In this document: positions 7,154 through 64,000 of the stretch, piece by piece
Position numbering within the stretch: the first letter of the stretch is position 1
Layout of the letters: each line of letters opens with the position of its first letter
Assembly: GCF_003018235.1 (NCBI RefSeq)
Contig: NZ_CP027437.1
Source of the DNA: Escherichia coli
GTDB taxonomy: Bacteria > Pseudomonadota > Gammaproteobacteria > Enterobacterales > Enterobacteriaceae
DNA length: 64,000 nt
Direction: 5' to 3' (one strand)
Made by a program: the position numbers and the translations under genes
The notes under the pieces: model-generated
Database searches by the model: none
What the model saw: only the letters and a program-made list of their open reading frames with translations
Told to the model about the DNA's origin: nothing

Positions 7154-7215
7154 CCTAAAGAATCAAGACGATCCGGTACGCGTGATTTTCTTTTCACATT
7201 AATCTGGTCAATAAC

Positions 7216-7243
7216 CTTGAATAATTGAGGGATGACCTCATTT
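7216..7243 (+). promoter_or_regulatory. Sigma32 heat-shock promoter of clpB (-35 CTTGAA, -10 CCTCATTT)
   Basis: Motif match to the sigma32 consensus, about 40 nt upstream of the clpB start. Confidence 0.6.
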
Positions 7244-7282
7244 AATCTCCAGTAGCAACTTTGATCCGTTATGGGAGGAGTT

Positions 7283-9856
7283 ATGCGTCTGGATCGTCTT
7301 ACTAATAAATTCCAGCTTGCTCTTGCCGATGCCCAATCACTTGCACTCGGGCACGACAACCAATTCATCGAACCACTTCATTTAATGAGCGCCCTGCTGA
7401 ATCAGGAAGGGGGTTCGGTTAGTCCTTTATTAACATCCGCTGGCATAAATGCTGGCCAGTTGCGCACAGATATCAATCAGGCATTAAATCGTTTACCGCA
7501 GGTTGAAGGTACTGGTGGTGATGTCCAGCCATCACAGGATCTGGTGCGCGTTCTTAATCTTTGCGACAAGCTGGCGCAAAAACGTGGTGATAACTTTATC
7601 TCGTCAGAACTGTTCGTTCTGGCGGCACTTGAGTCTCGCGGCACGCTGGCCGACATCCTGAAAGCAGCAGGGGCGACCACCGCCAACATTACTCAAGCGA
7701 TTGAACAAATGCGTGGAGGTGAAAGCGTGAACGATCAAGGTGCTGAAGACCAACGTCAGGCTTTGAAAAAATATACCATCGACCTTACCGAACGAGCCGA
7801 ACAGGGCAAACTCGATCCGGTGATTGGTCGTGATGAAGAAATTCGCCGTACCATTCAGGTGCTGCAACGTCGTACTAAAAATAACCCAGTACTGATTGGT
7901 GAACCCGGCGTCGGTAAAACTGCCATCGTTGAAGGTCTGGCGCAGCGTATTATCAACGGCGAAGTGCCGGAAGGGTTGAAAGGCCGCCGCGTACTGGCGC
8001 TGGATATGGGCGCGCTGGTGGCTGGGGCGAAATATCGCGGTGAGTTTGAAGAACGTTTAAAAGGCGTGCTTAACGATCTTGCCAAACAGGAAGGCAACGT
8101 CATCCTGTTTATCGACGAATTACATACCATGGTCGGCGCGGGTAAAGCCGATGGCGCAATGGACGCCGGAAACATGCTGAAACCGGCGCTGGCGCGTGGT
8201 GAATTGCACTGCGTAGGTGCCACGACGCTTGACGAATATCGCCAGTACATCGAAAAAGATGCTGCGCTGGAACGTCGTTTCCAGAAAGTGTTTGTTGCCG
8301 AGCCTTCTGTTGAAGATACCATTGCGATTCTGCGTGGCCTGAAAGAACGTTACGAATTGCACCACCATGTGCAAATTACTGACCCGGCAATTGTTGCAGC
8401 GGCGACGTTGTCTCATCGCTACATTGCTGACCGTCAGCTGCCGGATAAAGCCATCGACCTGATCGATGAAGCAGCATCCAGCATTCGTATGCAGATCGAC
8501 TCAAAACCAGAAGAACTCGACCGACTCGATCGTCGTATCATCCAGCTTAAACTGGAACAACAGGCGTTAATGAAAGAGTCTGATGAAGCCAGTAAAAAAC
8601 GCCTGGATATGCTCAACGAAGAACTGAGCGACAAAGAACGTCAGTACTCCGAGTTAGAAGAAGAGTGGAAAGCAGAGAAAGCATCGCTTTCTGGTACACA
8701 GACCATTAAAGCGGAACTGGAACAGGCGAAAATCGCTATTGAACAGGCTCGCCGTGTGGGTGACCTGGCGCGGATGTCTGAACTGCAATACGGCAAAATC
8801 CCGGAACTGGAAAAGCAACTGGAAGCCGCAACGCAGCTCGAAGGCAAAACTATGCGTCTGTTGCGTAATAAAGTGACCGATGCCGAAATTGCTGAAGTGC
8901 TGGCGCGTTGGACGGGGATTCCGGTTTCTCGCATGATGGAAAGCGAGCGCGAAAAACTGCTGCGTATGGAGCAAGAGCTGCACCATCGCGTTATTGGTCA
9001 GAACGAAGCGGTTGATGCGGTATCTAACGCTATTCGTCGTAGCCGTGCGGGGCTGGCGGATCCAAATCGCCCGATTGGTTCATTCCTGTTCCTCGGCCCA
9101 ACGGGTGTGGGGAAAACTGAGCTTTGTAAGGCGCTGGCGAACTTTATGTTTGATAGCGACGAGGCGATGGTCCGTATCGATATGTCCGAGTTTATGGAGA
9201 AACACTCGGTGTCTCGTCTGGTTGGTGCGCCTCCGGGATATGTCGGTTATGAAGAAGGTGGCTACCTGACCGAAGCGGTGCGTCGTCGTCCGTATTCCGT
9301 CATCCTGCTGGATGAAGTGGAAAAAGCGCATCCGGATGTCTTCAACATTCTGTTGCAGGTACTGGATGATGGGCGTCTGACTGACGGGCAGGGGAGAACG
9401 GTCGACTTCCGTAATACGGTTGTCATTATGACCTCTAACCTCGGTTCCGATTTGATTCAGGAACGCTTCGGTGAACTGGATTATGCGCACATGAAAGAGC
9501 TGGTGCTCGGTGTGGTAAGCCATAACTTCCGTCCGGAATTCATTAACCGTATCGATGAAGTGGTGGTCTTCCATCCGCTGGGTGAACAGCACATTGCGTC
9601 GATTGCGCAGATTCAGTTGAAACGTCTGTACAAACGTCTGGAAGAACGTGGTTATGAAATCCACATTTCTGACGAGGCGCTGAAACTGCTGAGCGAGAAC
9701 GGTTACGATCCGGTCTATGGTGCACGTCCTCTGAAACGTGCTATCCAGCAGCAGATCGAAAACCCGCTGGCACAGCAAATACTGTCTGGTGAATTGGTTC
9801 CGGGTAAAGTTATTCGCCTGGAAGTTAATGAAGACCGGATTGTCGCCGTCCAGTAA
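7283..9856 (+). CDS. clpB: Disaggregase chaperone ClpB (AAA+); internal GTG at 7727 (codon 149) is the known start of the short ClpB isoform
   Basis: 857 aa from the ATG at 7283 (GGGAGGAG Shine-Dalgarno); the ORF track begins 4 codons earlier at 7271; two Walker A motifs. Confidence 0.95.
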
Positions 9857-9863
9857 TGATAAA

Positions 9864-9888
9864 ACGAGCCCTTCGGGGCTCGTTTTTG
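9864..9888 (+). terminator. Rho-independent terminator after clpB
   Basis: ACGAGCCC-TTCG-GGGCTCGT hairpin followed by TTTTT. Confidence 0.8.
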
Positions 9889-9970
9889 TCTATAAATTAG
9901 ACGGAAAAGACTATGCTTAAGATGTTTTGCCTGAAAAATGAGCGAACGATAAAGTTTTTATATTTTTTGC

Positions 9971-9998
9971 TTGTCAGGCCGGAATAACTCCCTATAAT
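9971..9998 (+). promoter_or_regulatory. rRNA operon promoter P1 (-35 TTGTCA, 16-bp spacer, -10 TATAAT, GC-rich discriminator) with an AT-rich UP element upstream
   Basis: Classic rrn P1 architecture read directly. Confidence 0.75.
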
Positions 9999-10088
9999 GC
10001 GCCACCACTGACACGGAACAACGGCAAACACGCCGCCGGGTCAGCGGGGTTCTCCTGAGAATCTCAACAGAGTCAAGCAAGAAAATGC

Positions 10089-10116
10089 TTGACTCTGTAG
10101 CGGGAAAGCGTATTAT
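10089..10116 (+). promoter_or_regulatory. rRNA operon promoter P2 (-35 TTGACT, 16-bp spacer, -10 TATTAT)
   Basis: Motif reading. Confidence 0.65.
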
Positions 10117-10297
10117 GCACACCCCGCGCCGCTGAGAAAAAGCGAGGCGGCACTGCTCTTTAACAATTTATCAGACAATCTGTGTGGGCACTCGAAGATA
10201 CGGATTCTTAACGTCGCAAGACGAAAAATGAATACCAAGTCTCAAGAGTGAACACGTAATTCATTACGAAGTTTAATTCTTTGAGCATCAAACTTTT

Positions 10298-11839
<1,542 letters not shown>

Positions 11840-11924
11840 CCTTAAAGAACTGTGCTTTGCAGTGCTCACACAGATTGTCTGATGAAAAGTGAAAAGCAAG
11901 GCGTCTTGCGAAGCAGACTGATAC

Positions 11925-12000
11925 GTCCCCTTCGTCTAGAGGCCCAGGACACCGCCCTTTCACGGCGGTAACAGGGGTTCGAATCCCCTAGGGGACGCCA
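11925..12000 (+). tRNA. gltW: tRNA-Glu (UUC) in the 16S-23S spacer
   Basis: GTCCCCTTCGTCTAGAGG ... GGGGACGCCA, 76 nt ending in CCA. Confidence 0.95.
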
Positions 12001-12193
12001 CTTGCTGGTTTGTGAGTGAAAGTCACCTGCCTTAATATCTCAAAACTCATCTTCGGGTGACGTTTGAGATATTTGCTCTTTAAAAATCTGGATCAAGCTG
12101 AAAATTGAAACACTGAACAACGAAAGTTGTTCGTGAGTCTCTCAAATTTTCGCAACACGATGATGAATCGAAAGAAACATCTTCGGGTTGTGA

Positions 12194-15097
<2,904 letters not shown>

Positions 15098-15189
15098 ACA
15101 ACGCCGAAGCTGTTTTGGCGGATGAGAGAAGATTTTCAGCCTGATACAGATTAAATCAGAACGCAGAAGCGGTCTGATGAAACAGAATT

Positions 15190-15309
15190 TGCCTGGCGGC
15201 CTTAGCGCGGTGGTCCCACCTGACCCCATGCCGAACTCAGAAGTGAAACGCCGTAGCGCCGATGGTAGTGTGGGGTCTCCCCATGCGAGAGTAGGGAACT
15301 GCCAGGCAT
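15190..15309 (+). rRNA. rrfG: 5S ribosomal RNA
   Basis: TGCCTGGCGGC ... GCCAGGCAT; 120 nt. Confidence 0.97.
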
Positions 15310-32446: not shown

Positions 32447-33402
32447 TGAAGCAACTTTGGTTTGCCATGTCATTAGTGACAGGTAGCCTGTTATTCTCTG
32501 CTAACGCCTCGGCCACTCCCGCGTCCGGGGCGTTATTACAGCAGATGAACCTGGCCAGTCAGTCACTGAATTACGAGCTGTCATTCATCAGCATCAATAA
32601 ACAGGGTGTTGAGTCTCTGCGTTATCGACATGCACGCCTCGATAACCGTCCTCTTGCACAATTGTTGCAAATGGATGGCCCGCGCCGGGAAGTGGTACAG
32701 CGCGGCAATGAAATCAGCTATTTTGAACCGGGACTTGAACCGTTCACGCTTAATGGCGATTACATTGTTGATTCTCTACCATCGCTCATCTATACCGATT
32801 TCAAACGCCTTTCTCCTTACTACGACTTTATCTCCGTCGGGCGCACGCGTATTGCTGATCGTCTTTGCGAAGTCATTCGTGTGGTTGCCCGAGATGGTAC
32901 ACGCTACAGCTACATCGTGTGGATGGACACCGAATCGAAATTACCGATGCGGGTTGATCTCCTTGATCGCGATGGTGAAACGCTGGAACAATTTCGCGTG
33001 ATTGCTTTTAATGTCAATCAGGATATCAGCAGCAGTATGCAGACGCTGGCGAAGGCAAATTTGCCGCCGTTGCTTTCTGTTCCTGTAGGTGAAAAAGCTA
33101 AATTCAGCTGGACGCCAACCTGGTTGCCACAGGGTTTTAGCGAAGTTTCCAGTAGTCGACGTCCGCTACCGACGATGGACAACATGCCTATCGAATCACG
33201 TCTCTATTCCGACGGATTATTCAGCTTCTCGGTAAACGTTAACCGCGCTACGCCATCGAGCACCGATCAGATGTTGCGCACCGGGCGCAGAACCGTCAGT
33301 ACAAGCGTACGTGATAACGCCGAAATCACCATTGTCGGTGAACTGCCGCCGCAAACGGCGAAACGCATTGCCGAGAATATTAAGTTCGGGGCAACGCAAT
33401 GA
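32446..33402 (+). CDS. rseB: SigmaE regulatory protein RseB (periplasmic)
   Basis: 318 aa; TAATG overlap with rseA. Confidence 0.95.
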   Translation: MKQLWFAMSLVTGSLLFSANASATPASGALLQQMNLASQSLNYELSFISINKQGVESLRYRHARLDNRPLAQLLQMDGPRREVVQRGNEISYFEPGLEPFTLNGDYIVDSLPSLIYTDFKRLSPYYDFISVGRTRIADRLCEVIRVVARDGTRYSYIVWMDTESKLPMRVDLLDRDGETLEQFRVIAFNVNQDISSSMQTLAKANLPPLLSVPVGEKAKFSWTPTWLPQGFSEVSSSRRPLPTMDNMPIESRLYSDGLFSFSVNVNRATPSSTDQMLRTGRRTVSTSVRDNAEITIVGELPPQTAKRIAENIKFGATQ

Positions 33403-33878
33403 TCAAAGAGTGGGCTACCGTCGTCTCCTGGGAAAACGGGCAGGCGCTGGTTAGTTGTGATGTTAAAGCCTCATGCAGCAGCTGCGCTTCACGTGCCGGT
33501 TGCGGTAGCCGCGTGTTGAATAAACTTGGCCCGCAAACCACGCATACCATTGTCGTACCCTGTGATGAGCCGTTAGTGCCGGGGCAAAAAGTAGAATTAG
33601 GAATCGCCGAAGGCAGCCTGCTTAGCTCCGCATTACTGGTTTATATGTCGCCGCTGGTGGGATTATTCCTCATCGCTTCACTATTTCAGCTACTCTTTGC
33701 TTCAGATATTGCAGCATTATGCGGTGCGATTCTCGGTGGCGTTGGTGGATTCCTGATTGCACGTGGCTGCTCTCGAAAGTTTGCTGCCCGGGCAGAATGG
33801 CAACCGATCATCTTAAGCGTGGCATTGCCGCCTGGCCTTGTGCGATTTGAAACATCTTCGGAAGACGCGAGCCAGTGA
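33399..33878 (+). CDS. rseC: RseC (SoxR-reducing system / sigmaE regulatory protein)
   Basis: 159 aa; ATGA overlap with rseB. Confidence 0.9.
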   Translation: MIKEWATVVSWENGQALVSCDVKASCSSCASRAGCGSRVLNKLGPQTTHTIVVPCDEPLVPGQKVELGIAEGSLLSSALLVYMSPLVGLFLIASLFQLLFASDIAALCGAILGGVGGFLIARGCSRKFAARAEWQPIILSVALPPGLVRFETSSEDASQ

Positions 33879-34075
33879 TTTCACTGGCTTTGTTGCATTT
33901 TGCATAACAAATGCGAGGACGTTTCCAGATACCACAATCCATACGGTATGAACATTTCCTCGCCTCAATGTTGTAGTGTAGAATGCGGCGTTTCTATTAA
34001 TACAGACGTTAAGCTCAGAACAGCGACTTCTAAAAGCCTGGTTAACCGGGCATTAAGGCACAATAATCATACTTT

Positions 34076-35875
<1,800 letters not shown>

Positions 35876-36915: not shown

Positions 36916-37107
36916 TTATGAGATAAATCTCCCGTGGCTAACGACATCCCCCGTCGTTGTGTATAGAATATTCCCCCGAAGTTTAAGGTTGGCACCTCCA
37001 GGTTGCCACGGCACACGAAACAGCGTTGGTCCCCATATACCGGTAAACTGAAACTGCAGCGAAGCAGTTAGCAGAACCATGTATATCAGGTCTGTTTCGT
37101 GTGCTGA

Positions 37108-38720
<1,613 letters not shown>

Positions 38721-40583: not shown

Positions 40584-40605
40584 AAAAATACCGTTCTCTT
40601 TATAA

Positions 40606-40680
40606 AGTAAAACCCCCGAACTGGTAAGGAACGGGGGTTTTCACTTTACAACTTTAATTTTGTGCAGCACACGATTCCAA
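40606..40680 (-). ncRNA. ohsC: Putative OhsC antisense sRNA (antitoxin of shoB); extent approximate
   Basis: Known K-12 arrangement (divergent from shoB); minus-strand terminator at 40608..40641 and a candidate -10 CATAAT about 40689..40694; boundaries are inferred. Confidence 0.3.
40608..40641. terminator. Bidirectional hairpin terminator (acpS on +; presumed ohsC on -)
   Basis: CCCCCG / CGGGGG stem flanked by an A-run and a T-run. Confidence 0.7.
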
Positions 40681-41004
40681 CAGAAATGATTATGGATCAA
40701 TTTCGTTATCCTGTACAAGCAACTTGCAATCTCTGACATAAAAAACGCGAGCCTTTACGAAGAAATCGACATTGATAAAAAGATTAACGTGACCGCTTTT
40801 TGATAAGTACATTAAAATCGGTTTCGTTATTGGCAATTTTGCTGTGCTTTACACCATGCCACTGAATTCCCCCATTGAAACGAGTGGTGTCGTCAAAGCT
40901 CTGGTGTGGAGTGCAGCACTCGATTCCAATAACTCGCACGTTCAGTTTTGGGGAGATGTAAGGGCTAATCTGAACGGCTGCATTCCTTGTTTAAGGAAAA
41001 ACGA

Positions 41005-49860: not shown

Positions 49861-50050
49861 AGTGGCTCATTCACCGACTTATGTCAGCCCCTTCGGGACG
49901 TGCTACATAAAATTCGAATGACGCACAACAAGGTGCCTGCCGTCCAACTTCTGATATCAGCGTAGCTATATCAACCATCGGGCGAAACGTCGAGTTAGGC
50001 ACCGCCTTATTCCATAACAAAGCCGGGTAATTCCCGGCTTTGTTGTATCT
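49861..50050 (+). ncRNA. glmY: GlmY small RNA (regulator of glmS via GlmZ/RapZ)
   Basis: Starts AGTGGCTCATTCACCGACTTATGTCAGCCCCTTCGGG as recalled for GlmY; ends at the terminator AAAGCCGGGTAATTCCCGGCTTTGTT. Confidence 0.85.
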
Positions 50051-57010: not shown

Positions 57011-58204
57011 TCAAATCTGTCGTAACTGCGCCTCAACATACAAATAGCCAATCCCCAGCACCTGTTGTGCGCGGCTTAATTGCCCAAAGCCAATTTTCGT
57101 CGCTTTCACGCTCGGTCCTTCGTCGCGGTCGAACGGGTTAAATCCCGTCTGGCGAATAATGGTATTAAGCCAGTGCTTACCAAAGGCACAACTGCGACCG
57201 TACAACCAAATCTGATTAATATTGAGGATGTTGAGGAAGTTATACAGACTCAAACCAATGGCATTGGCAGAGCGATCAACCCAACTGGTGATCCACGGTT
57301 CTCCACTCTGCCAGGCAGCGATTAACTGCGCTGTTGTCAGTTTTTCAGGATCAAGCTGAGTATTAACCGGTTGTGATTTTAGCCATACCCGCGCCTGTTT
57401 TTTTAATGCACTTAACGAGGCGACGGTTTCCAGGCAGCCGTAACGTCCACAGTCGCAGACGACGCCATCCGGATTAACGATGGTGTGACCAATCTGTCCG
57501 CTACCATACAAACAGCCGCGATAAATTTGCTCGTTAATCACGAACGACGAGCCAATGCCGTAATCAACGTTGATCACGCAGAAATCCCGTTCCTGCGAAT
57601 TATTTTGCCATTTCTCCGCCAGCGCCAGCATCACGCAGTCATTATCGACCATCACCCGAATGCCGAGCTTCTCTTCCAGCAGATACTTTACCTCAACCGG
57701 CGTTGTCCACGGCGCTTGCGGCATGGTTTGCGACACGCCAGTCACCGGATCAACCTGACCGTGGATTGCCAGCGCCAGGTTGATGGTACGGTCCGGCCAC
57801 AATTTACGGTGGCGATGCCAGCATTTTTCGATTTCGGACAGCAGCGCCTGCGGCGTCGGTGCATCAATCTGTAAATACTCAAATTCACCTTTCGGACTTA
57901 AACAGGCGTTAGCGACCTGACACTCAATACTGGTGGGCGTCACGTTCAGGCACAGCGTCCAGTCACCTTCCGGCGCAATCAGCCATGTACCGCTACTATG
58001 CCCGCGCGTCTGGCTTTCATCGTCGATATTCACCACCCGTTTTTCGCTTTCCAGTTCCTGCAAAATATTACTGACCGCCGGAATCGAAATTTGCGCCAGC
58101 CGGGCCAGGGTTGATTTATTGGCGCGCTTTTGCCGGTACAGCAGTTCCAGAATCACGCATTTGTTATGGTGGCGAATCTGTTGATTATTAATGCAGGCTC
58201 TCAT
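57011..58204 (-). CDS. yphH: ROK-family (NagC/XylR-like) transcriptional regulator YphH
   Basis: 397 aa from MRACINNQQIRHH; N-terminal HTH and ROK sugar-kinase-like fold. Confidence 0.85.
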   Translation of the reverse strand: MRACINNQQIRHHNKCVILELLYRQKRANKSTLARLAQISIPAVSNILQELESEKRVVNIDDESQTRGHSSGTWLIAPEGDWTLCLNVTPTSIECQVANACLSPKGEFEYLQIDAPTPQALLSEIEKCWHRHRKLWPDRTINLALAIHGQVDPVTGVSQTMPQAPWTTPVEVKYLLEEKLGIRVMVDNDCVMLALAEKWQNNSQERDFCVINVDYGIGSSFVINEQIYRGCLYGSGQIGHTIVNPDGVVCDCGRYGCLETVASLSALKKQARVWLKSQPVNTQLDPEKLTTAQLIAAWQSGEPWITSWVDRSANAIGLSLYNFLNILNINQIWLYGRSCAFGKHWLNTIIRQTGFNPFDRDEGPSVKATKIGFGQLSRAQQVLGIGYLYVEAQLRQI

Positions 58205-58321
58205 CTTCACTAAACCTTGTTTAGTTAATTGCGTGATTATTCCGCGAAAACATTGCCAGATTGTTCAATACACTGCCACAAATCTTTTAATTCAGTATGT
58301 CTTGTTAATATTGAGGGCACC

Positions 58322-61300
58322 ATGACTCCAGTAAAAGTGTGGCAAGAGCGCGTTGAGATCCCGACCTATGAAACCGGGCCGCAGGATATACATCCTATGT
58401 TCCTGGAAAATCGCGTTTATCAGGGATCGTCCGGCGCGGTTTATCCCTACGGCGTGACCGATACGCTGAGCGAGCAGAAAACCCTGAAATCCTGGCAGGC
58501 GGTGTGGCTGGAAAACGACTACATCAAAGTGATGATCCTGCCGGAGTTGGGCGGTCGGGTGCATCGCGCATGGGATAAAGTGAAACAGCGCGATTTTGTC
58601 TATCACAATGAAGTCATTAAACCGGCGCTGGTGGGGCTGCTGGGACCGTGGATCTCCGGCGGGATTGAGTTTAACTGGCCGCAACACCATCGCCCGACCA
58701 CCTTTATGCCCGTTGATTTCACCCTCGAAGCCCATGAAGACGGCGCACAGACGGTGTGGGTAGGCGAAACGGAGCCGATGCATGGTTTACAGGTGATGAC
58801 AGGTTTCACCCTGCGTCCTGACCGGGCGGCACTGGAAATCGCCAGCCGCGTCTATAACGGCAACGCCACGCCGCGTCATTTCTTGTGGTGGGCCAACCCG
58901 GCAGTGAAAGGGGGTGAAGGGCATCAGAGCGTCTTCCCGCCGGATGTAACGGCGGTGTTTGATCACGGCAAACGGGCCGTCTCTGCTTTCCCCATCGCCA
59001 CCGGCACTTACTACAAAGTGGACTACTCCGCTGGAGTGGACATTTCTCGCTATAAAAATGTGCCTGTTCCAACCTCATATATGGCTGAAAAATCACAGTA
59101 CGATTTTGTTGGCGCGTGGTGTCACGATGAAGATGGCGGTTTGCTACACGTTGCCAACCACCATATCGCGCCAGGTAAAAAACAGTGGAGCTGGGGACAC
59201 AGTGAATTTGGCCAGGCGTGGGATAAGAGTCTGACCGACAATAACGGCCCGTATATCGAACTGATGACCGGTATTTTTGCCGATAACCAGCCTGATTTTA
59301 CCTGGCTTGATGCGTACGAGGAGAAGCGTTTCGAGCAGTATTTCCTGCCTTATCATTCTCTGGGCATGGTGCAAAATGCCTCCCGCGATGCGGCGATAAA
59401 ACTCCAGCGTAGTGAGCGGGGGATTGAGTGGGGGCTGTATGCCATCTCTCCGTTGAAAGGATACCGTCTGGCGATCCGCGAAATCGGCAAATGCAACGCG
59501 TTACTCGATGATGCCGTGGCCCTGACACCAGCGACCGCCATCCAGGGCGTGTTGCACGGTATCAATCCTGACAGACTGACCATTGAACTCTCCGATGCCG
59601 ACGGCAATATTGTACTGAGTTATCAGGAACATCAGCCGCAGGAGTTGCCGTTGCCGGACGTCGCCAAAGCGCCACTGGCAGCACAAGACATTGCCAGTAC
59701 AGATGAAGCCTGGTTTATCGGTCAGCATCTAGAGCAATATCATCACGCCAGTCGTTCACCGTTCGATTACTACCTGCGCGGTGTGGCGCTGGACCCGCTG
59801 GATTATCGCTGTAACCTGGCGCTGGCGATGCTGGAATATAACCGCGCAGATTTCCCGCAAGCGGTGGTGTATGCCAGTCAGGCGCTGAAACGCGCACATG
59901 CGCTGAACAAAAACCCGCAGAGTGGACAGGCCAGTTTGATTCGCGCCAGTGCTTACGAACGTCAGGGGCAATATCAACAAGCCGAAGAGGATTTCTGGCG
60001 GGCGGTCTGGAGCGGCAACAGTAAAGCAGGTGGCTATTATGGTCTGGCACGGCTGGCGGCGCGTAATGGTAACTTCGACGCTGGTCTGGATTTTTGCCAA
60101 CAAAGTCTTCGCGCCTGCCCAACCAATCAGGAAGTGCTTTGCCTGCATAATCTGCTGCTGGTGTTAAGTGGTCGTCAGGACAACGCGCGTTTGCAGCGCG
60201 AGAAACTGCTGCGTGATTATCCGCTGAACGCCACTCTGTGGTGGCTGAACTGGTTCGATGGTCGTAGCGAATCAGCCTTCGCGCAGTGGCGCGGTCTGTG
60301 TCAGGGACGCGACGTTAACGCCCTGATGACCGCCGGGCAACTGATTAACTGGGGAATGCCCACCCTGGCGGCAGAGATGCTGAACGCACTGGACTGCCAG
60401 CGCACACTGCCGCTTTACCTGCAAGCCAGCTTGCTGCCGAAAGCTGAACGCGGCGAACTGGTCGCAAAAGCCATTGATGTCTTCCCACAGTTTGTCCGTT
60501 TCCCGAATACGCTGGAAGAAGTGGCGGCGCTGGAGAGTATTGAAGAGTGCTGGTTTGCCCGTCATTTACTGGCCTGCTTCTACTACAACAAGCGCAGCTA
60601 CAACAAAGCCATTACTTTATGGCAACGTTGCGTAGAGATGTCGCCGGAGTTTGCCGACGGCTGGCGCGGGTTAGCGATCCATGCGTGGAATAAGCAACAC
60701 GATTATGAGCTGGCCGCGCGTTATCTTGATAATGCTTATCAGCTTGCGCCGCAGGATGCACGTCTGCTTTTTGAACGGGATTTGCTGGATAAGTTAAGCG
60801 GTGTCACACCGGAGAAACGACTGGCGCGTCTGGAAAATAATCTTGAAATTGCGCTGAAACGCGACGACATGACCGCAGAACTGCTCAATTTGTGGCATCT
60901 CACTGGTCAGGCAGACAAAGCGGCGGACATTCTCGCCACGCGCAAATTCCACCCGTGGGAAGGCGGGGAAGGGAAGATCACCAGTCAGTTTATCCTCAAC
61001 CAGTTATTACGCGCCTGGCAGCATCTTGATGCCAGAGAGCCGCAGCAGGCCAGCGAACTGCTTCATGCCGCGCTGCATTATCCGGAGAATTTAAGTGAAG
61101 GCCGTTTACCGGGGCAAACTGATAACGACATCTGGTTCTGGCAGGCGATATGCGCCAACGCGCAGGGCGATGAAACTGAAGCGATGCGTTGTTTACGTCT
61201 GGCGGCGACTGGCGATCGCACCATTAACATTCACAGTTATTACAACGATCAGCCGGTTGATTATCTCTTCTGGCAAGGGATGGCGCTGCGACTGCTGGGC

Positions 61301-61603
61301 GAACAACAAACCGCACAGCAACTGTTTAGTGAAATGAAACAGTGGGCGCAAGAGATGGCGAAAACCAGTATCGAAGCGGATTTCTTTGCCGTCTCGCAAC
61401 CTGACTTGTTGTCGCTGTATGGCGATTTACAACAGCAGCATAAAGAAAAATGCCTGATGGTGGCGATGCTGGCGTCCGCGGGACTCGGGGAGATTGTGCA
61501 CTATGAATCTGCTCGCGCTGAATTGACGGCGATTAATCCGGCCTGGCCGAAAGCGGCATTATTCACCACTGTGATGCCTTTTATTTTTAACTACGTTCAC
61601 TAA
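58322..61603 (+). CDS. yphG: Large uncharacterised protein YphG with TPR-like C-terminal repeats
   Basis: ATG at 58322 with a GAGGG Shine-Dalgarno gives 1093 aa; the ORF track starts at a TTG at 58229 (1124 aa), only 24 bp from the divergent yphH start and without a Shine-Dalgarno. Start is uncertain. Confidence 0.8.
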   Translation: MTPVKVWQERVEIPTYETGPQDIHPMFLENRVYQGSSGAVYPYGVTDTLSEQKTLKSWQAVWLENDYIKVMILPELGGRVHRAWDKVKQRDFVYHNEVIKPALVGLLGPWISGGIEFNWPQHHRPTTFMPVDFTLEAHEDGAQTVWVGETEPMHGLQVMTGFTLRPDRAALEIASRVYNGNATPRHFLWWANPAVKGGEGHQSVFPPDVTAVFDHGKRAVSAFPIATGTYYKVDYSAGVDISRYKNVPVPTSYMAEKSQYDFVGAWCHDEDGGLLHVANHHIAPGKKQWSWGHSEFGQAWDKSLTDNNGPYIELMTGIFADNQPDFTWLDAYEEKRFEQYFLPYHSLGMVQNASRDAAIKLQRSERGIEWGLYAISPLKGYRLAIREIGKCNALLDDAVALTPATAIQGVLHGINPDRLTIELSDADGNIVLSYQEHQPQELPLPDVAKAPLAAQDIASTDEAWFIGQHLEQYHHASRSPFDYYLRGVALDPLDYRCNLALAMLEYNRADFPQAVVYASQALKRAHALNKNPQSGQASLIRASAYERQGQYQQAEEDFWRAVWSGNSKAGGYYGLARLAARNGNFDAGLDFCQQSLRACPTNQEVLCLHNLLLVLSGRQDNARLQREKLLRDYPLNATLWWLNWFDGRSESAFAQWRGLCQGRDVNALMTAGQLINWGMPTLAAEMLNALDCQRTLPLYLQASLLPKAERGELVAKAIDVFPQFVRFPNTLEEVAALESIEECWFARHLLACFYYNKRSYNKAITLWQRCVEMSPEFADGWRGLAIHAWNKQHDYELAARYLDNAYQLAPQDARLLFERDLLDKLSGVTPEKRLARLENNLEIALKRDDMTAELLNLWHLTGQADKAADILATRKFHPWEGGEGKITSQFILNQLLRAWQHLDAREPQQASELLHAALHYPENLSEGRLPGQTDNDIWFWQAICANAQGDETEAMRCLRLAATGDRTINIHSYYNDQPVDYLFWQGMALRLLGEQQTAQQLFSEMKQWAQEMAKTSIEADFFAVSQPDLLSLYGDLQQQHKEKCLMVAMLASAGLGEIVHYESARAELTAINPAWPKAALFTTVMPFIFNYVH

Positions 61604-61699
61604 ACCCTATTAACTGTAATATTTGAGCGGCACGCGCTGCCGCTCACGCTCAAATAATTAAAATAAGCCGTTGTAAATAAAAAACCTACAGGAGGTACT

Positions 61700-62683
61700 A
61701 TGCCTAAAAAAATGAGAACAACCCGTAATCTATTATTAATGGCTACGCTATTAGGTAGCGCACTATTTGCCAGGGCTGCGGATAAAGAAATGACCATTGG
61801 CGCAATATACCTTGATACCCAGGGATATTACGCTGGCGTGCGTCAGGGCGTTCAGGATGCGGCAAAAGATTCTTCAGTACAGGTACAGTTAATTGAAACT
61901 AACGCCCAGGGTGATATTTCGAAAGAAAGTACCTTTGTTGATACCCTCGTGGCGCGTAATGTCGATGCCATTATTTTATCGGCAGTGTCTGAAAATGGCA
62001 GTAGCCGTACCGTTCGTCGCGCCAGTGAAGCGGGTATTCCGGTTATTTGCTACAACACCTGTATTAATCAAAAGGGGGTCGATAAATATGTCTCGGCGTA
62101 TCTGGTCGGCGATCCGCTGGAATTTGGTAAAAAACTGGGTAATGCTGCCGCCGATTATTTTATTGCCAACAAAATTGACCAGCCGAAAATTGCCGTTATC
62201 AATTGCGAAGCCTTTGAAGTTTGTGTGCAACGACGTAAAGGGTTTGAAGAAGTATTAAAAGCCCGTGTTCCCGGCGTGCAAATTGTCGCTAATCAGGAAG
62301 GGACTGTTTTAGATAAAGCGATTTCCGTTGGTGAAAAACTAATTATCTCCACGCCGGATCTCAACGCCATTATGGGCGAATCGGGCGGTGCGACACTCGG
62401 CGCGGTAAAAGCGGTACGTAATCAAAATCAGGCCGGAAAAATTGCTGTTTTCGGTTCGGATATGACAACCGAAATTGCTCAGGAGCTGGAAAACAATCAG
62501 GTGCTGAAAGCGGTAGTGGATATTTCCGGTAAGAAAATGGGCAATGCTGTTTTCGCGCAAACTTTGAAGGTTATCAATAAACAAGCCGACGGTGCAAAAG
62601 TGATTCAGGTGCCTATCGATCTCTATACCAAAACGGAAGACGGTAAACAGTGGCTGGCAACGCACGTTGATAGTCTGCCCTAA
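61700..62683 (+). CDS. yphF: ABC transporter periplasmic sugar-binding protein (LacI/RbsB-type fold) YphF
   Basis: 327 aa with signal peptide. Confidence 0.85.
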   Translation: MPKKMRTTRNLLLMATLLGSALFARAADKEMTIGAIYLDTQGYYAGVRQGVQDAAKDSSVQVQLIETNAQGDISKESTFVDTLVARNVDAIILSAVSENGSSRTVRRASEAGIPVICYNTCINQKGVDKYVSAYLVGDPLEFGKKLGNAAADYFIANKIDQPKIAVINCEAFEVCVQRRKGFEEVLKARVPGVQIVANQEGTVLDKAISVGEKLIISTPDLNAIMGESGGATLGAVKAVRNQNQAGKIAVFGSDMTTEIAQELENNQVLKAVVDISGKKMGNAVFAQTLKVINKQADGAKVIQVPIDLYTKTEDGKQWLATHVDSLP

Positions 62684-62705
62684 TCGCTGATTCGCAGAGG
62701 TCCCT

Positions 62706-64000
62706 ATGTTCACGGCAACAGAGGCAGTCCCGGTAGCAAAAGTGGTGGCAGGAAATAAGCGTTATCCCGGCGTCGTTGCGTTGGATAACGTTAACTTCAC
62801 GCTCAATAAAGGCGAAGTTCGTGCGCTGTTAGGCAAAAACGGCGCGGGCAAATCGACCCTCATTCGAATGCTTACCGGTAGCGAACGTCCGGATAGCGGT
62901 GATATCTGGATTGGCGAGACGCGACTGGAAGGTGACGAAGCTACGTTGACTCGCCGTGCCGCTGAACTGGGGGGTCGTGCGGTTTATCAGGAGTTAAGTC
63001 TGGTGGAGGGACTGACGGTGGCGGAAAACCTCTGCCTCGGTCAGTGGCCCCGCCGCAACGGCATGATTGATTACCTGCAAATGGCGCAGGATGCCCAACG
63101 TTGCTTACAGGCGCTGGGCGTTGACGTTAGCCCTGAACAACTTGTTTCAACGCTAAGCCCGGCGCAAAAGCAACTGGTGGAAATTGCGCGGGTGATGAAG
63201 GGCGAGCCGCGCGTGGTCATTCTTGATGAACCTACCAGTTCGCTTGCCAGTGCGGAAGTTGAACTGGTGATCAGCGCGGTTAAAAAGATGTCGGCACTGG
63301 GCGTGGCGGTGATTTATGTCAGCCACCGGATGGAAGAAATCCGCCGCATTGCCTCCTGTGCCACCGTTATGCGCGATGGTCAGGTGGCGGGCGATGTGAT
63401 GCTCGAAAACACCTCCACGCATCATATTGTGTCGCTAATGCTCGGGCGCGATCACGTTGATATTGCGCCGGTTTCCCCTCAGGAAATTGTCGATCAGGCC
63501 GTGCTGGAAGTCCGTGCGTTACGCCATAAGCCCAAGCTGGAGGATATCAGCTTTACGCTCCGTCGTGGCGAAGTACTCGGCATTGCTGGCCTGCTGGGGG
63601 CAGGGCGCAGTGAATTGTTGAAAGCCATAGTTGGGCTGGAGACGTATGAACAGGGCGAAATTGTTATCAACGGCGAGAAAATCACGCGCCCCGATTACGG
63701 CGACATGCTGAAACGCGGCATTGGCTATACGCCAGAAAACCGCAAAGAAGCGGGGATCATTCCCTGGCTGGGCGTTGACGAAAATACAGTGCTGACCAAT
63801 CGGCAAAAAATCAGCGCCAACGGTGTGCTGCAATGGTCCACCATCCGCCGCCTGACCGAAGAGGTGATGCAGCGGATGACGGTCAAGGCCGCCAGTAGCG
63901 AAACGCCCATCGGCACGCTTTCTGGCGGCAATCAGCAAAAAGTGGTGATCGGTCGTTGGGTCTATGCCGCCAGCCAGATTTTGTTGCTCGACGAGCCAAC
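62706..64000 (+). CDS. yphE: ABC transporter ATP-binding protein YphE (sugar importer type, two ATPase domains); 3' end truncated by the window
   Basis: Walker A GKNGAGKST, LSGGNQQK signature, second Walker A region GLLGAGRSE; open reading frame runs to the window end. Confidence 0.85.
   Translation, partial: MFTATEAVPVAKVVAGNKRYPGVVALDNVNFTLNKGEVRALLGKNGAGKSTLIRMLTGSERPDSGDIWIGETRLEGDEATLTRRAAELGGRAVYQELSLVEGLTVAENLCLGQWPRRNGMIDYLQMAQDAQRCLQALGVDVSPEQLVSTLSPAQKQLVEIARVMKGEPRVVILDEPTSSLASAEVELVISAVKKMSALGVAVIYVSHRMEEIRRIASCATVMRDGQVAGDVMLENTSTHHIVSLMLGRDHVDIAPVSPQEIVDQAVLEVRALRHKPKLEDISFTLRRGEVLGIAGLLGAGRSELLKAIVGLETYEQGEIVINGEKITRPDYGDMLKRGIGYTPENRKEAGIIPWLGVDENTVLTNRQKISANGVLQWSTIRRLTEEVMQRMTVKAASSETPIGTLSGGNQQKVVIGRWVYAASQILLLDEP

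What the first reader, a model, noticed from the sequence alone, without database searches (positions are those of the whole stretch)
57011..64000. Uncharacterised yph locus: ROK regulator divergent from a >1000-aa TPR protein plus ABC sugar-type importer
yphH (ROK family), yphG (about 1100 aa, TPR-like C-terminus, no assigned function to my knowledge), yphF (periplasmic binding protein) and yphE (double ATPase) look like a carbohydrate uptake and utilisation system whose substrate, and the role of the giant YphG, are unknown. The yphG start is ambiguous: a TTG at 58229 is 24 bp from the divergent yphH start, versus an ATG with Shine-Dalgarno at 58322.
Basis: partly seen in the sequence, partly recalled or inferred. 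Interest (0 to 1): 0.4.

Follow-up and report, generated by a model that had tools for sequence, protein, structure and literature searches.

The report
Uncharacterised yph sugar operon, YphG enzyme
This is the known but still unexplained E. coli yph sugar operon; its 1093-residue protein YphG has a sugar-mutarotase-type domain capped by a long helical-repeat domain, and belongs to a large family that sits next to sugar importers and galactose-releasing enzymes in many bacteria.

Summary
Window 57011-64000 holds yphH (ROK repressor, minus strand), then yphG, yphF and the 5' part of yphE on the plus strand. The locus is present in 5425 of 5426 complete E. coli genomes and continues beyond the window with yphD, yphC and yphB.

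The start-codon question is settled. yphG starts at the ATG at 58322. The TTG at 58229 lies inside a conserved DNA box and has no counterpart in Klebsiella or Aeromonas.

YphG is not only a TPR protein:
- Residues 460-1092 are a helical solenoid.
- The gene is under purifying selection (dN/dS about 0.06-0.10).
- The full-length family has over 1000 sequence clusters across phyla, and no paper assigns it a function.

In 80 genomes the close, cytoplasmic YphG homologues sit beside:
- an AraC or ROK regulator (58 loci);
- a monosaccharide-type importer (50 loci);
- galactosidase-family enzymes (44 loci);
- mutarotases (21 loci).

My best reading is a cytoplasmic enzyme that converts an imported galactose-like sugar. 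The reaction itself remains unknown. The locus is ordinary in kind and is a genuine gap in gene function.

The parts
57011..58204 (-). yphH, a ROK-family repressor of 397 aa, transcribed divergently from yphG.
   Evidence: ORF and RefSeq CDS. Pfam ROK 113 bits, with weak MarR and HTH_24 matches at the N-terminus. NCBIfam places it nearest NagC and Mlc but far below their cut-offs. The zinc motif CDCGRYGC is present. The CAT of the ATG start is conserved across genera, whereas the upstream GTG lies inside DNA box A.
58206..58228 (.). Box A: the 23-bp palindrome TTCACTAAACCTTGTTTAGTTAA, a candidate YphH operator that abuts the yphH start codon.
   Evidence: Inverted repeat with 10-nt arms, 90% complementary, 3-nt spacer. 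Conserved in Klebsiella, Enterobacter, Citrobacter, Hafnia and Aeromonas. One mismatch to CACTAAACNNNGTTTAGTG; with up to 3 mismatches the window has 3 hits against 0.28 expected. Binding by YphH is inferred, not shown.
58228..58236 (.).
   Evidence: TTGCGTGA is identical in all 11 aligned Enterobacterales intergenic regions and in Aeromonas, while the in-frame codons after it are not conserved as protein.
58291..58309 (.). Box B: TTCAGTATGTCTTGTTAAT, a degenerate copy of box A lying 85 bp from it and just upstream of the yphG Shine-Dalgarno sequence.
   Evidence: Direct repeats D1 and D2. The position is conserved in other genera.
58322..61603 (+). yphG, 1093 aa. Residues 1-345 form the DUF5107 mutarotase-fold beta sandwich (58322-59356). 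Residues 357-435 form a small beta domain. Residues 460-1092 form a TPR-like helical solenoid (59699-61597).
61596..61619 (.). Box C: TTCACTAAACCCTATTAACTGTAA, a third box-A-like palindrome overlapping the yphG stop codon, ahead of yphF.
   Evidence: Pattern hit with 3 mismatches. Conserved at the same position in E. albertii, Klebsiella, Enterobacter and Budvicia.
61624..61644 (+). GC-rich stem-loop GAGCGGC...GCCGCTC between yphG and yphF, with no T-run after it.
   Evidence: The stem is kept and the loop varies in five genera. The surrounding 59 nt fold at -16.1 kcal/mol, z = -2.5. The minimum-energy fold uses an overlapping alternative pairing.
61700..62683 (+). yphF, a periplasmic CUT2-type sugar-binding protein of 327 aa with a signal peptide.
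   Evidence: Peripla_BP_4 119 bits. Below every NCBIfam equivalog cut-off, including allose, galactose, ribose and galactofuranose binders. Signal peptide seen. The nearest solved structures are uncharacterised or ribose/galactose-type binding proteins.
62706..64000 (+). yphE, a fused double ABC ATPase, with its 3' end cut by the window end (about 217 nt missing).
   Evidence: Two ABC_tran stretches. Nearest to AraG, XylG, AlsA and MglA but below their cut-offs. The full gene is seen in L001. Start read.

Best explanation
The locus is a substrate-inducible sugar utilisation operon.

YphH, a ROK repressor, most likely binds the palindromic boxes A and B in the 117-bp divergent control region and box C ahead of yphF. 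It would release them when the sugar or a derivative is present.

YphF, YphE and YphD import a monosaccharide-sized sugar from the periplasm.

YphG is the signature cytoplasmic enzyme. I propose that it holds the sugar in a mutarotase-type pocket of the N-terminal beta sandwich. The pocket residues would be the invariant E313 and the near-invariant H122, H123, R124, E116, H215, K286, K287, D306 and D325. Conserved residues of the helical domain (R782, E818, E880) would close the pocket.

I commit to ring-opening acid-base chemistry on a free galactose-configured monosaccharide, such as D-galactose, L-arabinopyranose, D-fucose or a derivative. This would be an anomer, ring-form, epimer or aldose-ketose conversion, not glycoside hydrolysis.

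YphB would then equilibrate the anomers of the product, and YphC, a zinc-dependent dehydrogenase, would carry out a redox step.

Shown: the gene content, the start codon, the fold, the conservation, the cytoplasmic location of close homologues and the genomic associations. Inferred: the catalytic residues, the sugar class, the reaction type, the operator function and the roles of YphB and YphC.
For: Fold:
- The second model has pLDDT 95.3.

Conservation:
- E313 and R782 are invariant in 125 full-length homologues that go down to about 28% identity.
- H122, H123, K100, N192, H215, K287 and E880 are conserved in at least 96% of them.
- By strand order, H122/H123 and E313 occupy the positions of the first catalytic His and the catalytic Glu of mutarotases. 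This mapping is low-confidence.

Functional gene: dN/dS is 0.06-0.10.

Context in 80 species:
- A sugar-porter MFS nearest XylE in 41 loci, mostly adjacent and co-directional; a sugar-porter MFS or a CUT2 ABC system in 50 loci.
- A divergent AraC or ROK regulator in 58 loci.
- GH2 (related to BT4151 beta-1,4-galactosidase), GH35, GH36 or GH97 in 44 loci.
- A mutarotase-like gene in 21 loci.

Location:
- None of the 80 close homologues has room for, or the look of, a signal peptide.
- The neighbouring GH2, GH35, GH36 and GH97 genes in Bacteroidota do carry signal peptides.
- In those bacteria the sugar is therefore released in the periplasm, imported by the porter, and meets YphG in the cytoplasm.

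Minimal module: Aeromonas carries only ROK, YphG, MFS and a mutarotase.

Regulatory boxes.
Against: - No enzymatic, binding or genetic data exist for any family member.
- Profile comparison with aldose 1-epimerases is not significant.
- The position equivalent to the second catalytic His of mutarotases (H186) is Thr or Ser in most of the family.
- A separate mutarotase in the same operon makes a plain mutarotase role redundant.
- A 1093-residue protein is large for a monosaccharide interconversion.
- In Firmicutes and Bifidobacterium, YphG is often co-operonic with a cytoplasmic GH2, or stands alone with only its AraC regulator. That pattern is typical of glycosidases.
- Distant family members are secreted, and one of them lies in a polysaccharide utilisation locus beside GH16 and sulfatases.
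- I could not inspect model coordinates, so the idea that the helical domain caps the pocket is untested.
Confidence: 0.4

Rival explanations
1. YphG founds an unrecognised glycoside hydrolase-type family. It would cleave a small galactoside or arabinopyranoside, for example a glyceryl-, methyl- or polyol-galactoside or a short galacto-oligosaccharide. The aldose is released in one anomeric form and handled by YphB, and the aglycone is handled by YphC.
For: - Tight same-strand adjacency to GH2-like genes: 21 of 37 lie within 300 bp.
- Cytoplasmic GH2 partners in Firmicutes and Bifidobacterium.
- Stand-alone AraC-YphG pairs.
- Secreted distant members, one of them in a SusCD locus with GH16 and sulfatases.
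- The pairing of a glycosidase with a mutarotase is an established operon logic, as in lacZ with galM and yihQ with yihR (general knowledge).
- Many conserved carboxylates: E64, D85, E116, D306, E313, D325 and E333.
Against: - No match to any GH family in Pfam or NCBIfam.
- The nearest structures are true mutarotases, not glycosidase domains.
- The linked importers are monosaccharide types: a sugar porter nearest XylE, and CUT2 ABC systems.
- In Bacteroidota the protein is cytoplasmic and lies behind such a porter, while the glycosidases are exported.
Confidence: 0.3
2. YphG is not an enzyme. It would be a cytoplasmic sugar sensor or scaffold. The mutarotase-fold domain binds the sugar, and the TPR solenoid contacts the regulator, the transporter or another protein to tune induction or uptake.
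For: - TPR solenoids commonly mediate protein-protein contacts.
- The most constant neighbours are a regulator (58 of 80 loci) and a transporter (50 of 80), not a full catabolic pathway.
- One distant homologue lies next to a histidine kinase.
- The second mutarotase His is not conserved.
Against: - More than 25 polar residues are nearly invariant down to about 28% identity, including motifs inside the helical domain such as HPWEGGEG. This is more typical of catalysis.
- Secreted family members sit among degradative enzymes.
- The regulator type changes between AraC and ROK across phyla while YphG stays the same, which argues against a specific partner interface.
Confidence: 0.12
3. The locus is an evolutionary remnant that is silent or decaying in E. 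coli and no longer has a role.
For: - Truncated YphG entries exist in some E. coli assemblies.
- One strain (L010) shows an in-frame stop and elevated dN.
- No sigma-70-like promoter was found in the control region by a simple scan.
- No phenotype is reported in the library searched.
Against: - Present and near full length in 5403 of 5426 complete genomes.
- Intact 1093-codon frame in the window, and dN/dS of 0.06-0.10 against E. coli, E. albertii, Enterobacter and Klebsiella.
- Regulatory boxes are conserved across genera.
Confidence: 0.05

Closest known systems
Aldose 1-epimerases / galactose mutarotase (GalM, YphB, YeaD; Pfam PF01263)
   Different: - No significant sequence or profile similarity.
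- The second catalytic His position is Thr or Ser in most family members.
- About 50 extra residues in the domain, an extra small beta domain, and a 630-residue helical solenoid with its own conserved motifs.
- A genuine mutarotase, YphB, is encoded in the same operon.
PDB 5CD6 (BDI_1685, Parabacteroides distasonis; structural-genomics 'TPR-domain containing protein', DUF5107)
   Different: - Only 580 residues, so it lacks about 500 residues of the helical domain and the conserved motifs there.
- N118, H122, R124 and the DNQPD motif are not kept.
- No function is assigned, so it does not explain YphG.
NagC/Mlc-type ROK repressors with paired palindromic operators at divergent promoters
   Same: - ROK domain with an N-terminal HTH and the zinc motif.
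- Divergent arrangement.
- A 23-bp palindrome next to the regulator's own start.
- A second related box 85 bp away. That spacing would allow looping as described for NagC at nagE-nagB (general knowledge).
   Different: - YphH scores far below the NagC and Mlc equivalog cut-offs.
- It forms its own small, long-branched cluster with an atypical linker motif (PMC4288165).
- The box sequence differs from NagC and Mlc sites.
- Binding and inducer are untested.
CUT2 monosaccharide ABC importers of E. coli (RbsABC, MglBAC, AraFGH, XylFGH, AlsBAC, YtfQRT-YjfF)
   Same: A Peripla_BP_4 binding protein with a signal peptide, a fused double ATPase and a BPD_transp_2 permease.
   Different: YphF and YphE fall below every substrate-specific NCBIfam cut-off. 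The ligand is unknown. In related genera the ABC system is replaced by, or accompanied by, a sugar-porter MFS.

Membership tests
DUF5107 (Pfam PF17128) | Match to the family HMM above the gathering score | tested here: met
   188.9 bits against a cut-off of 24.4, over residues 39-324. It is the only Pfam hit for residues 1-473, even at E up to 10.
DUF5107 (Pfam PF17128) | Structural correspondence with the solved family member 5CD6 | tested here: met
Aldose 1-epimerase (PF01263, EC 5.1.3.3) | Mutarotase beta-supersandwich fold | tested here: met
Aldose 1-epimerase (PF01263, EC 5.1.3.3) | Sequence or profile similarity to the family | tested here: not met
   No PF01263 hit at E up to 10. hhalign against a profile of 13 operon-linked epimerases gives probability of 1% or less.
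Aldose 1-epimerase (PF01263, EC 5.1.3.3) | Catalytic Glu base plus two His (L. lactis GalM E304, H96 and H170, from general knowledge) | tested here: inconclusive
   E313 is invariant, and H122 and H123 are conserved at 98%, at positions that match by strand order. The position matching the second His (H186) is T, S or H in 53, 34 and 17 of 125 sequences. H215 is nearly invariant and could substitute. No structure-based residue alignment was available.
Aldose 1-epimerase (PF01263, EC 5.1.3.3) | Mutarotase activity | not testable with these tools
   Needs an enzyme assay.
TPR repeat proteins | TPR HMM matches above cut-off and an all-helical solenoid | tested here: met
Glycoside hydrolases (any CAZy family) | Sequence membership of a described GH family | tested here: not met
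   No GH family appears among the Pfam or NCBIfam hits. CAZy itself could not be queried.
Glycoside hydrolases (any CAZy family) | Hydrolysis of a glycosidic bond | not testable with these tools
   Needs an enzyme assay.
ROK repressors (NagC/Mlc/XylR type) | ROK domain with the CxCGxxGC zinc motif and an N-terminal DNA-binding domain | tested here: met
   ROK 113.1 bits. CDCGRYGC is present in the sequence. The MarR and HTH_24 matches at residues 18-56 are below the Pfam cut-offs but correctly placed.
ROK repressors (NagC/Mlc/XylR type) | Binding to a palindromic operator, relieved by a sugar effector | not testable with these tools
   Candidate boxes A, B and C were found and are conserved. 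No binding data exist.
CUT2 sugar ABC importers | Periplasmic Peripla_BP_4 binding protein, fused double ATPase and BPD_transp_2 permease | tested here: met
   for the binding protein and ATPase. The permease yphD lies outside the window but is present in E. coli and Klebsiella.
CUT2 sugar ABC importers | Known substrate (equivalog-level match) | tested here: not met
   The best NCBIfam scores are 65.7 bits (cut-off 335) for YphF and 384 bits (cut-off 689) for YphE.

The most novel reading that the evidence does not exclude
YphG and its more than 1000 sequence clusters form a new carbohydrate-active enzyme family. In it, a mutarotase-type beta sandwich closed by a TPR solenoid would be the catalytic unit. 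The reaction would be one not yet assigned to this fold: either a new glycoside hydrolase family, or a new isomerase or epimerase for galacto-configured sugars. It would work downstream of galactosidases in gut, soil and marine bacteria, with a new ROK regulon in E. coli.
Probability: 0.5. Interest if true: 0.6.

Novelty: new variant of a known kind. Interest (0 to 1): 0.4.

Why it matters
The yph genes are among the remaining sugar-related genes of unknown function in E. coli K-12. YphFED is the one sugar ABC importer listed without a defined substrate in the 2023 review table of E. coli sugar transporters.

YphG represents a large family. About 1158 clusters at 50% identity match with E of 1e-30 or better, and most of the best-listed matches cover nearly the full length. 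The family is found in Enterobacterales, Aeromonas, Bacteroidota, Lachnospiraceae, Paenibacillus and Bifidobacterium, repeatedly next to galactan- and pectin-degrading enzymes.

Assigning its reaction would fill a gap in how gut and marine bacteria process galactose-type sugars after the glycosidases have acted.

This work turns the question into concrete tests:
- a sugar class to try;
- residues to mutate (E313, H122, H123, R782, E880);
- three DNA boxes to footprint;
- a settled start codon for cloning.

Tried and rejected
- First AlphaFold run, with 32 close homologues: the N-terminal domain came out unreliable (pLDDT below 50 for residues 93-129 and 179-334). A Foldseek search on that model returned only generic TPR proteins.
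- A 125-sequence alignment was too large to submit. A 71-sequence alignment gave the good model.
- The afdb50 fold library was not available.
- hhalign of the YphG family against operon-linked epimerases was not significant, and the long low-confidence alignment is unusable for residue mapping beyond the first strands and the HH motif.
- Model coordinates are not exposed, so I could not measure contacts between the N-domain pocket and the helical domain.
- Literature searches for yphG, DUF5107, PF17128/IPR033396, 5CD6/BDI_1685, yph operon names and b2549 found no functional study.
- A GH174 review did not state the fold, so that lead stays unverified.
- The simple sigma-70 scan found no promoter in the control region.
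- I considered a CRP-like or NagC/Mlc-like reading of the ATTGCGTGA...CGCGAAAA stretch and rejected it by eye as too weak.
- Several downstream genes in Firmicutes loci turned out to be unrelated housekeeping genes such as pheST and carAB.
- TTG 58229 as the start is rejected:
  - Klebsiella has an in-frame TGA and no start codon in the 22 codons upstream of its ATG.
  - Aeromonas has a TAA nine codons upstream; the only alternative start there is a TTG directly before the ATG, not a counterpart of 58229.
  - All homologues are about 1090 aa long.
Full report
**What is there.** The ORF table shows yphH at 57011-58210 on the minus strand, a long plus-strand ORF at 58229-61603, yphF at 61700-62683, and an ORF running off the window end. 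Megablast of 57011-64000 finds the stretch in 5425 of 5426 complete E. coli genomes. It is always chromosomal and at most 98.8% identical. The annotations are yphH (ROK family), yphG (DUF5107 domain-containing), yphF (substrate-binding) and yphE (sugar ABC ATPase). In E. coli T-HYM1 the operon continues with yphD (permease), yphC (zinc-dependent alcohol dehydrogenase family) and yphB (aldose 1-epimerase), followed by yphA (DoxX) on the other strand. The flanks are glyA and the hca genes. So the window cuts the operon inside yphE. Pfam, NCBIfam and direct reading confirm the domain content:
- YphH has a ROK domain, a weak winged-HTH match and the zinc motif CDCGRYGC.
- YphF is a Peripla_BP_4 protein with a Sec signal peptide.
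- YphE has two ABC_tran domains.
- None of the three reaches any substrate-specific NCBIfam cut-off.

**Start codon.** RefSeq starts yphG at the ATG at 58322. GAGGG lies at 58313-58317. All close and moderately distant homologues are 1084-1109 residues long and align from residues 1-4. In Klebsiella the frame upstream of the ATG is closed by a TGA 22 codons back, with no ATG, GTG or TTG in between. In Aeromonas a TAA lies nine codons upstream. The TTG at 58229 lies inside ATTGCGTGA, a DNA box whose TTGCGTGA core is identical in 11 Enterobacterales and in Aeromonas. The codons after it are not conserved as protein. The TTG is therefore an artefact of ORF extension into a regulatory element. For yphH, the CAT of the ATG at 58204 is conserved, and the upstream GTG falls inside box A.

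**YphG is a real, constrained gene.** The frame is intact. dN/dS is 0.097 against another E. coli, 0.059 against E. albertii, 0.072 against an Enterobacter and 0.093 against Klebsiella. Sporadic truncated copies exist in some assemblies.

**Anatomy of YphG.** Pfam finds DUF5107 at residues 39-324 and TPR families between residues 499 and 1004. The only solved relative by sequence is 5CD6, a 580-residue structural-genomics protein with no assigned function. A first model from 32 close sequences was poor in the N-domain. A second model, from 71 sequences reaching down to 26% identity, gave pLDDT 95.3 and pTM 0.93. It shows three parts:
- a beta-rich domain, residues 1-345;
- a small beta domain, residues 357-435;
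- about 33 helices, residues 460-1092.

**Conservation.** The exhaustive search finds 1158 clusters at 50% identity with E of 1e-30 or better. Most of the 150 best-listed are about 1100 residues long and match over nearly the full length, down to about 29% identity. In 125 full-length sequences:
- E313 and R782 are invariant.
- R31, Q34, E64, N65, D85, K100, E116, H122, H123, R124, N192, H215, K286, K287, D306, N322, Q323, D325 and E333 are nearly invariant in the N-domain.
- Q472, Y483, E818 and E880 are nearly invariant in the helical domain.

After the H122-H123-R124 loop come four strands and then the segment RHFLWWAN. This reproduces the mutarotase order of an LHG motif, four strands and then HPYFN. 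On that count H122/H123 and E313 would match the first His and the catalytic Glu. The second His position (H186) is Thr or Ser in most members. This many conserved polar residues in both domains points to catalysis, but not to a canonical mutarotase.

**Genomic context.** I fetched 80 loci from different species at 39-96% identity. They cover Escherichia, Enterobacter, Budvicia, Aeromonas, Photobacterium, many Bacteroidota, Lachnospiraceae, Paenibacillus, Ruminiclostridium and Bifidobacterium. I clustered the neighbouring ORFs and named the clusters with Pfam and NCBIfam:

| Neighbour | Loci (of 80) | Notes |
|---|---|---|
| AraC-family regulator | 45 | 40 of 48 copies divergent and upstream |
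| ROK regulator | 13 | |
| Sugar-porter MFS, nearest XylE | 41 | 26 copies within 300 bp, co-directional |
| GH2-like protein of about 925 aa | 30 | 21 of 37 copies within 300 bp |
| CUT2 permease or binding protein | 14 | |
| Aldose_epim or DUF4432 proteins | 21 | |
| GH35 | 10 | |
| GH36 | 6 | |
| GH97 | 4 | |
| Sulfatases, SusC/SusD, GDSL esterase | fewer | marine Flavobacteria |

The GH2-like protein is nearest to PDB 8U01 and to the NCBIfam model for B. thetaiotaomicron BT4151 exo-beta-1,4-galactosidase. It belongs to subfamily GH2_20, described as beta-galactosidases acting on decorated xyloglucan or rhamnogalacturonan II (PMC12243196).

Overall, 58 loci have a regulator, 50 have a monosaccharide-type importer and 44 have a galactosidase-family enzyme. 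Aeromonas, Citrobacter and Hafnia carry only ROK, YphG, MFS and a YphB-like epimerase. Several Firmicutes have only AraC and YphG, followed by unrelated genes.

**Location.** In 52 of 79 close homologues the maximal upstream extension is five residues or fewer. None of the longer extensions looks like a signal peptide. The adjacent GH2, GH35, GH36 and GH97 genes in Bacteroidota carry clear signal or lipoprotein peptides, while those of Firmicutes and Bifidobacterium do not. About 20 of 125 more distant homologues (32% identity or less) do have signal peptides. One of them lies in a SusCD locus next to GH16, sulfatases and beta-helix proteins.

**Mechanism.** In Bacteroidota the order of events is readable. 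Exported galactosidase-family enzymes release a sugar in the periplasm. A XylE-like porter imports it. YphG then meets it in the cytoplasm. This pattern, the CUT2 system in E. coli and the closeness of the fold to true mutarotases all favour a monosaccharide-level conversion of a galacto-configured sugar. GH2, GH35, GH36 and GH97 are also known for acting on L-arabinopyranosides, so L-arabinose and D-fucose remain candidates alongside D-galactose. That last point rests on general knowledge.

I put this reading at about 0.4. The main rival, at about 0.3, is that YphG is an unrecognised glycosidase for small galactosides. Support for the rival comes from co-operonic cytoplasmic GH2 genes in Gram-positives, stand-alone AraC-YphG pairs, secreted relatives, and the classic pairing of a glycosidase with a mutarotase. 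A non-enzymatic sensor or scaffold (about 0.12) and a decaying remnant (about 0.05) are less likely. YphC is nearest to threonine, xylitol and sorbitol dehydrogenases and to scyllo-inosose 3-dehydrogenase, all well below cut-off. YphB is the solved but uncharacterised 3NRE. Their proposed roles are inference.

**Regulation.** The 117-bp region between the two start codons contains three elements:
- a 23-bp palindrome, box A, at 58206-58228;
- the invariant ATTGCGTGA box at 58228-58236;
- a degenerate copy of box A, box B, at 58291-58309, 85 bp from box A.

A third copy, box C at 61596-61619, overlaps the yphG stop codon. A GC-rich stem-loop at 61624-61644 follows it; the stem is kept and the loop varies between genera. 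The consensus with up to three mismatches occurs three times in the window against 0.28 expected, and two of the three hits are in this locus. Boxes A and C are conserved at orthologous positions in several genera. These are good candidates for YphH operators and for an internal control point ahead of yphF. YphH itself is described in the literature only as an uncharacterised third ROK repressor with an atypical linker (PMC4288165, PMC9308461).

**Novelty and verdict.** The locus is catalogued in every E. coli annotation, and its kind, a repressor-controlled ABC sugar operon, is ordinary. What is not known is the substrate and the reaction of YphG. Its family is large and widespread, and it combines a known fold with an unusual architecture. 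I rate it a new variant of a known kind, with interest 0.4. A specialist would not be surprised that the operon exists, but the function is a real open question, and the results here make it directly testable.

Noticed in passing
window 58206-58228, 58291-58309, 61596-61619: Three related palindromic boxes with consensus about TTCACTAAAC-N3-GTTTAGTGAA. Two lie in the yphH-yphG control region, 85 bp apart. One overlaps the yphG stop codon. Boxes A and C are conserved at orthologous positions in other genera. They are candidate YphH operators.
   Followed up: partly
window 61624-61644: A GC-rich stem-loop (GAGCGGC...GCCGCTC) directly after box C in the yphG-yphF spacer. The stem is kept and the loop differs in E. 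albertii, Klebsiella and two Enterobacteriaceae. No T-run follows it, so it is not a classic terminator. It could be an attenuating or stabilising hairpin.
   Followed up: partly
window 58228-58236: The DNA box ATTGCGTGA; its TTGCGTGA core is invariant from E. coli to Aeromonas and its role is unknown. It contains the TTG that produced the apparent start-codon ambiguity.
   Followed up: partly
L010 2379-5660 (E. coli SCPM-O-B-8794); proteins P0002, P0028, P0039: Some E. coli assemblies carry yphG copies with an in-frame stop or truncated products of 955, 741 and 643 aa. This suggests sporadic decay or assembly errors in individual strains, against a strongly conserved background.
   Followed up: no
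L002/L003 (Klebsiella) 8195-9885; L012-L015, L018, L019, L024: The operon is modular across Enterobacterales. In Klebsiella the DoxX gene (yphA) sits between glyA and yphH. Some genera have the ABC system, the dehydrogenase, the epimerase and an additional sugar-porter MFS. Others have only the MFS and the epimerase.
   Followed up: partly
L090 1-14872: A distant YphG-like protein with a signal peptide (P0252) lies in a SusC/SusD locus with GH16, two sulfatases and two beta-helix proteins. This suggests that an exported subfamily acts on a sulfated glycan.
   Followed up: no
L030, L041, L051, L052, L081, L085, L087 (marine Flavobacteriia): A recurrent block of genes in the order sulfatase, sugar-porter MFS, GDSL esterase, GH2-like, YphG-like, sulfatases, GH2-like. 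In L051, L052 and L082 a GH30-type protein also lies nearby. It looks like an uncharacterised locus for a sulfated, possibly acetylated, galactan.
   Followed up: no
window 7164-15307, 33363-34194, 36978-37192, 40604-40681, 49861-50008: The rest of the window carries known E. coli RNA features at Rfam gathering scores: RyfD, an rrn operon with an internal tRNA, AsrC antisense of rseC, rncO, OhsC and GlmY. All are consistent with the E. coli chromosome region upstream of glyA.
   Followed up: no
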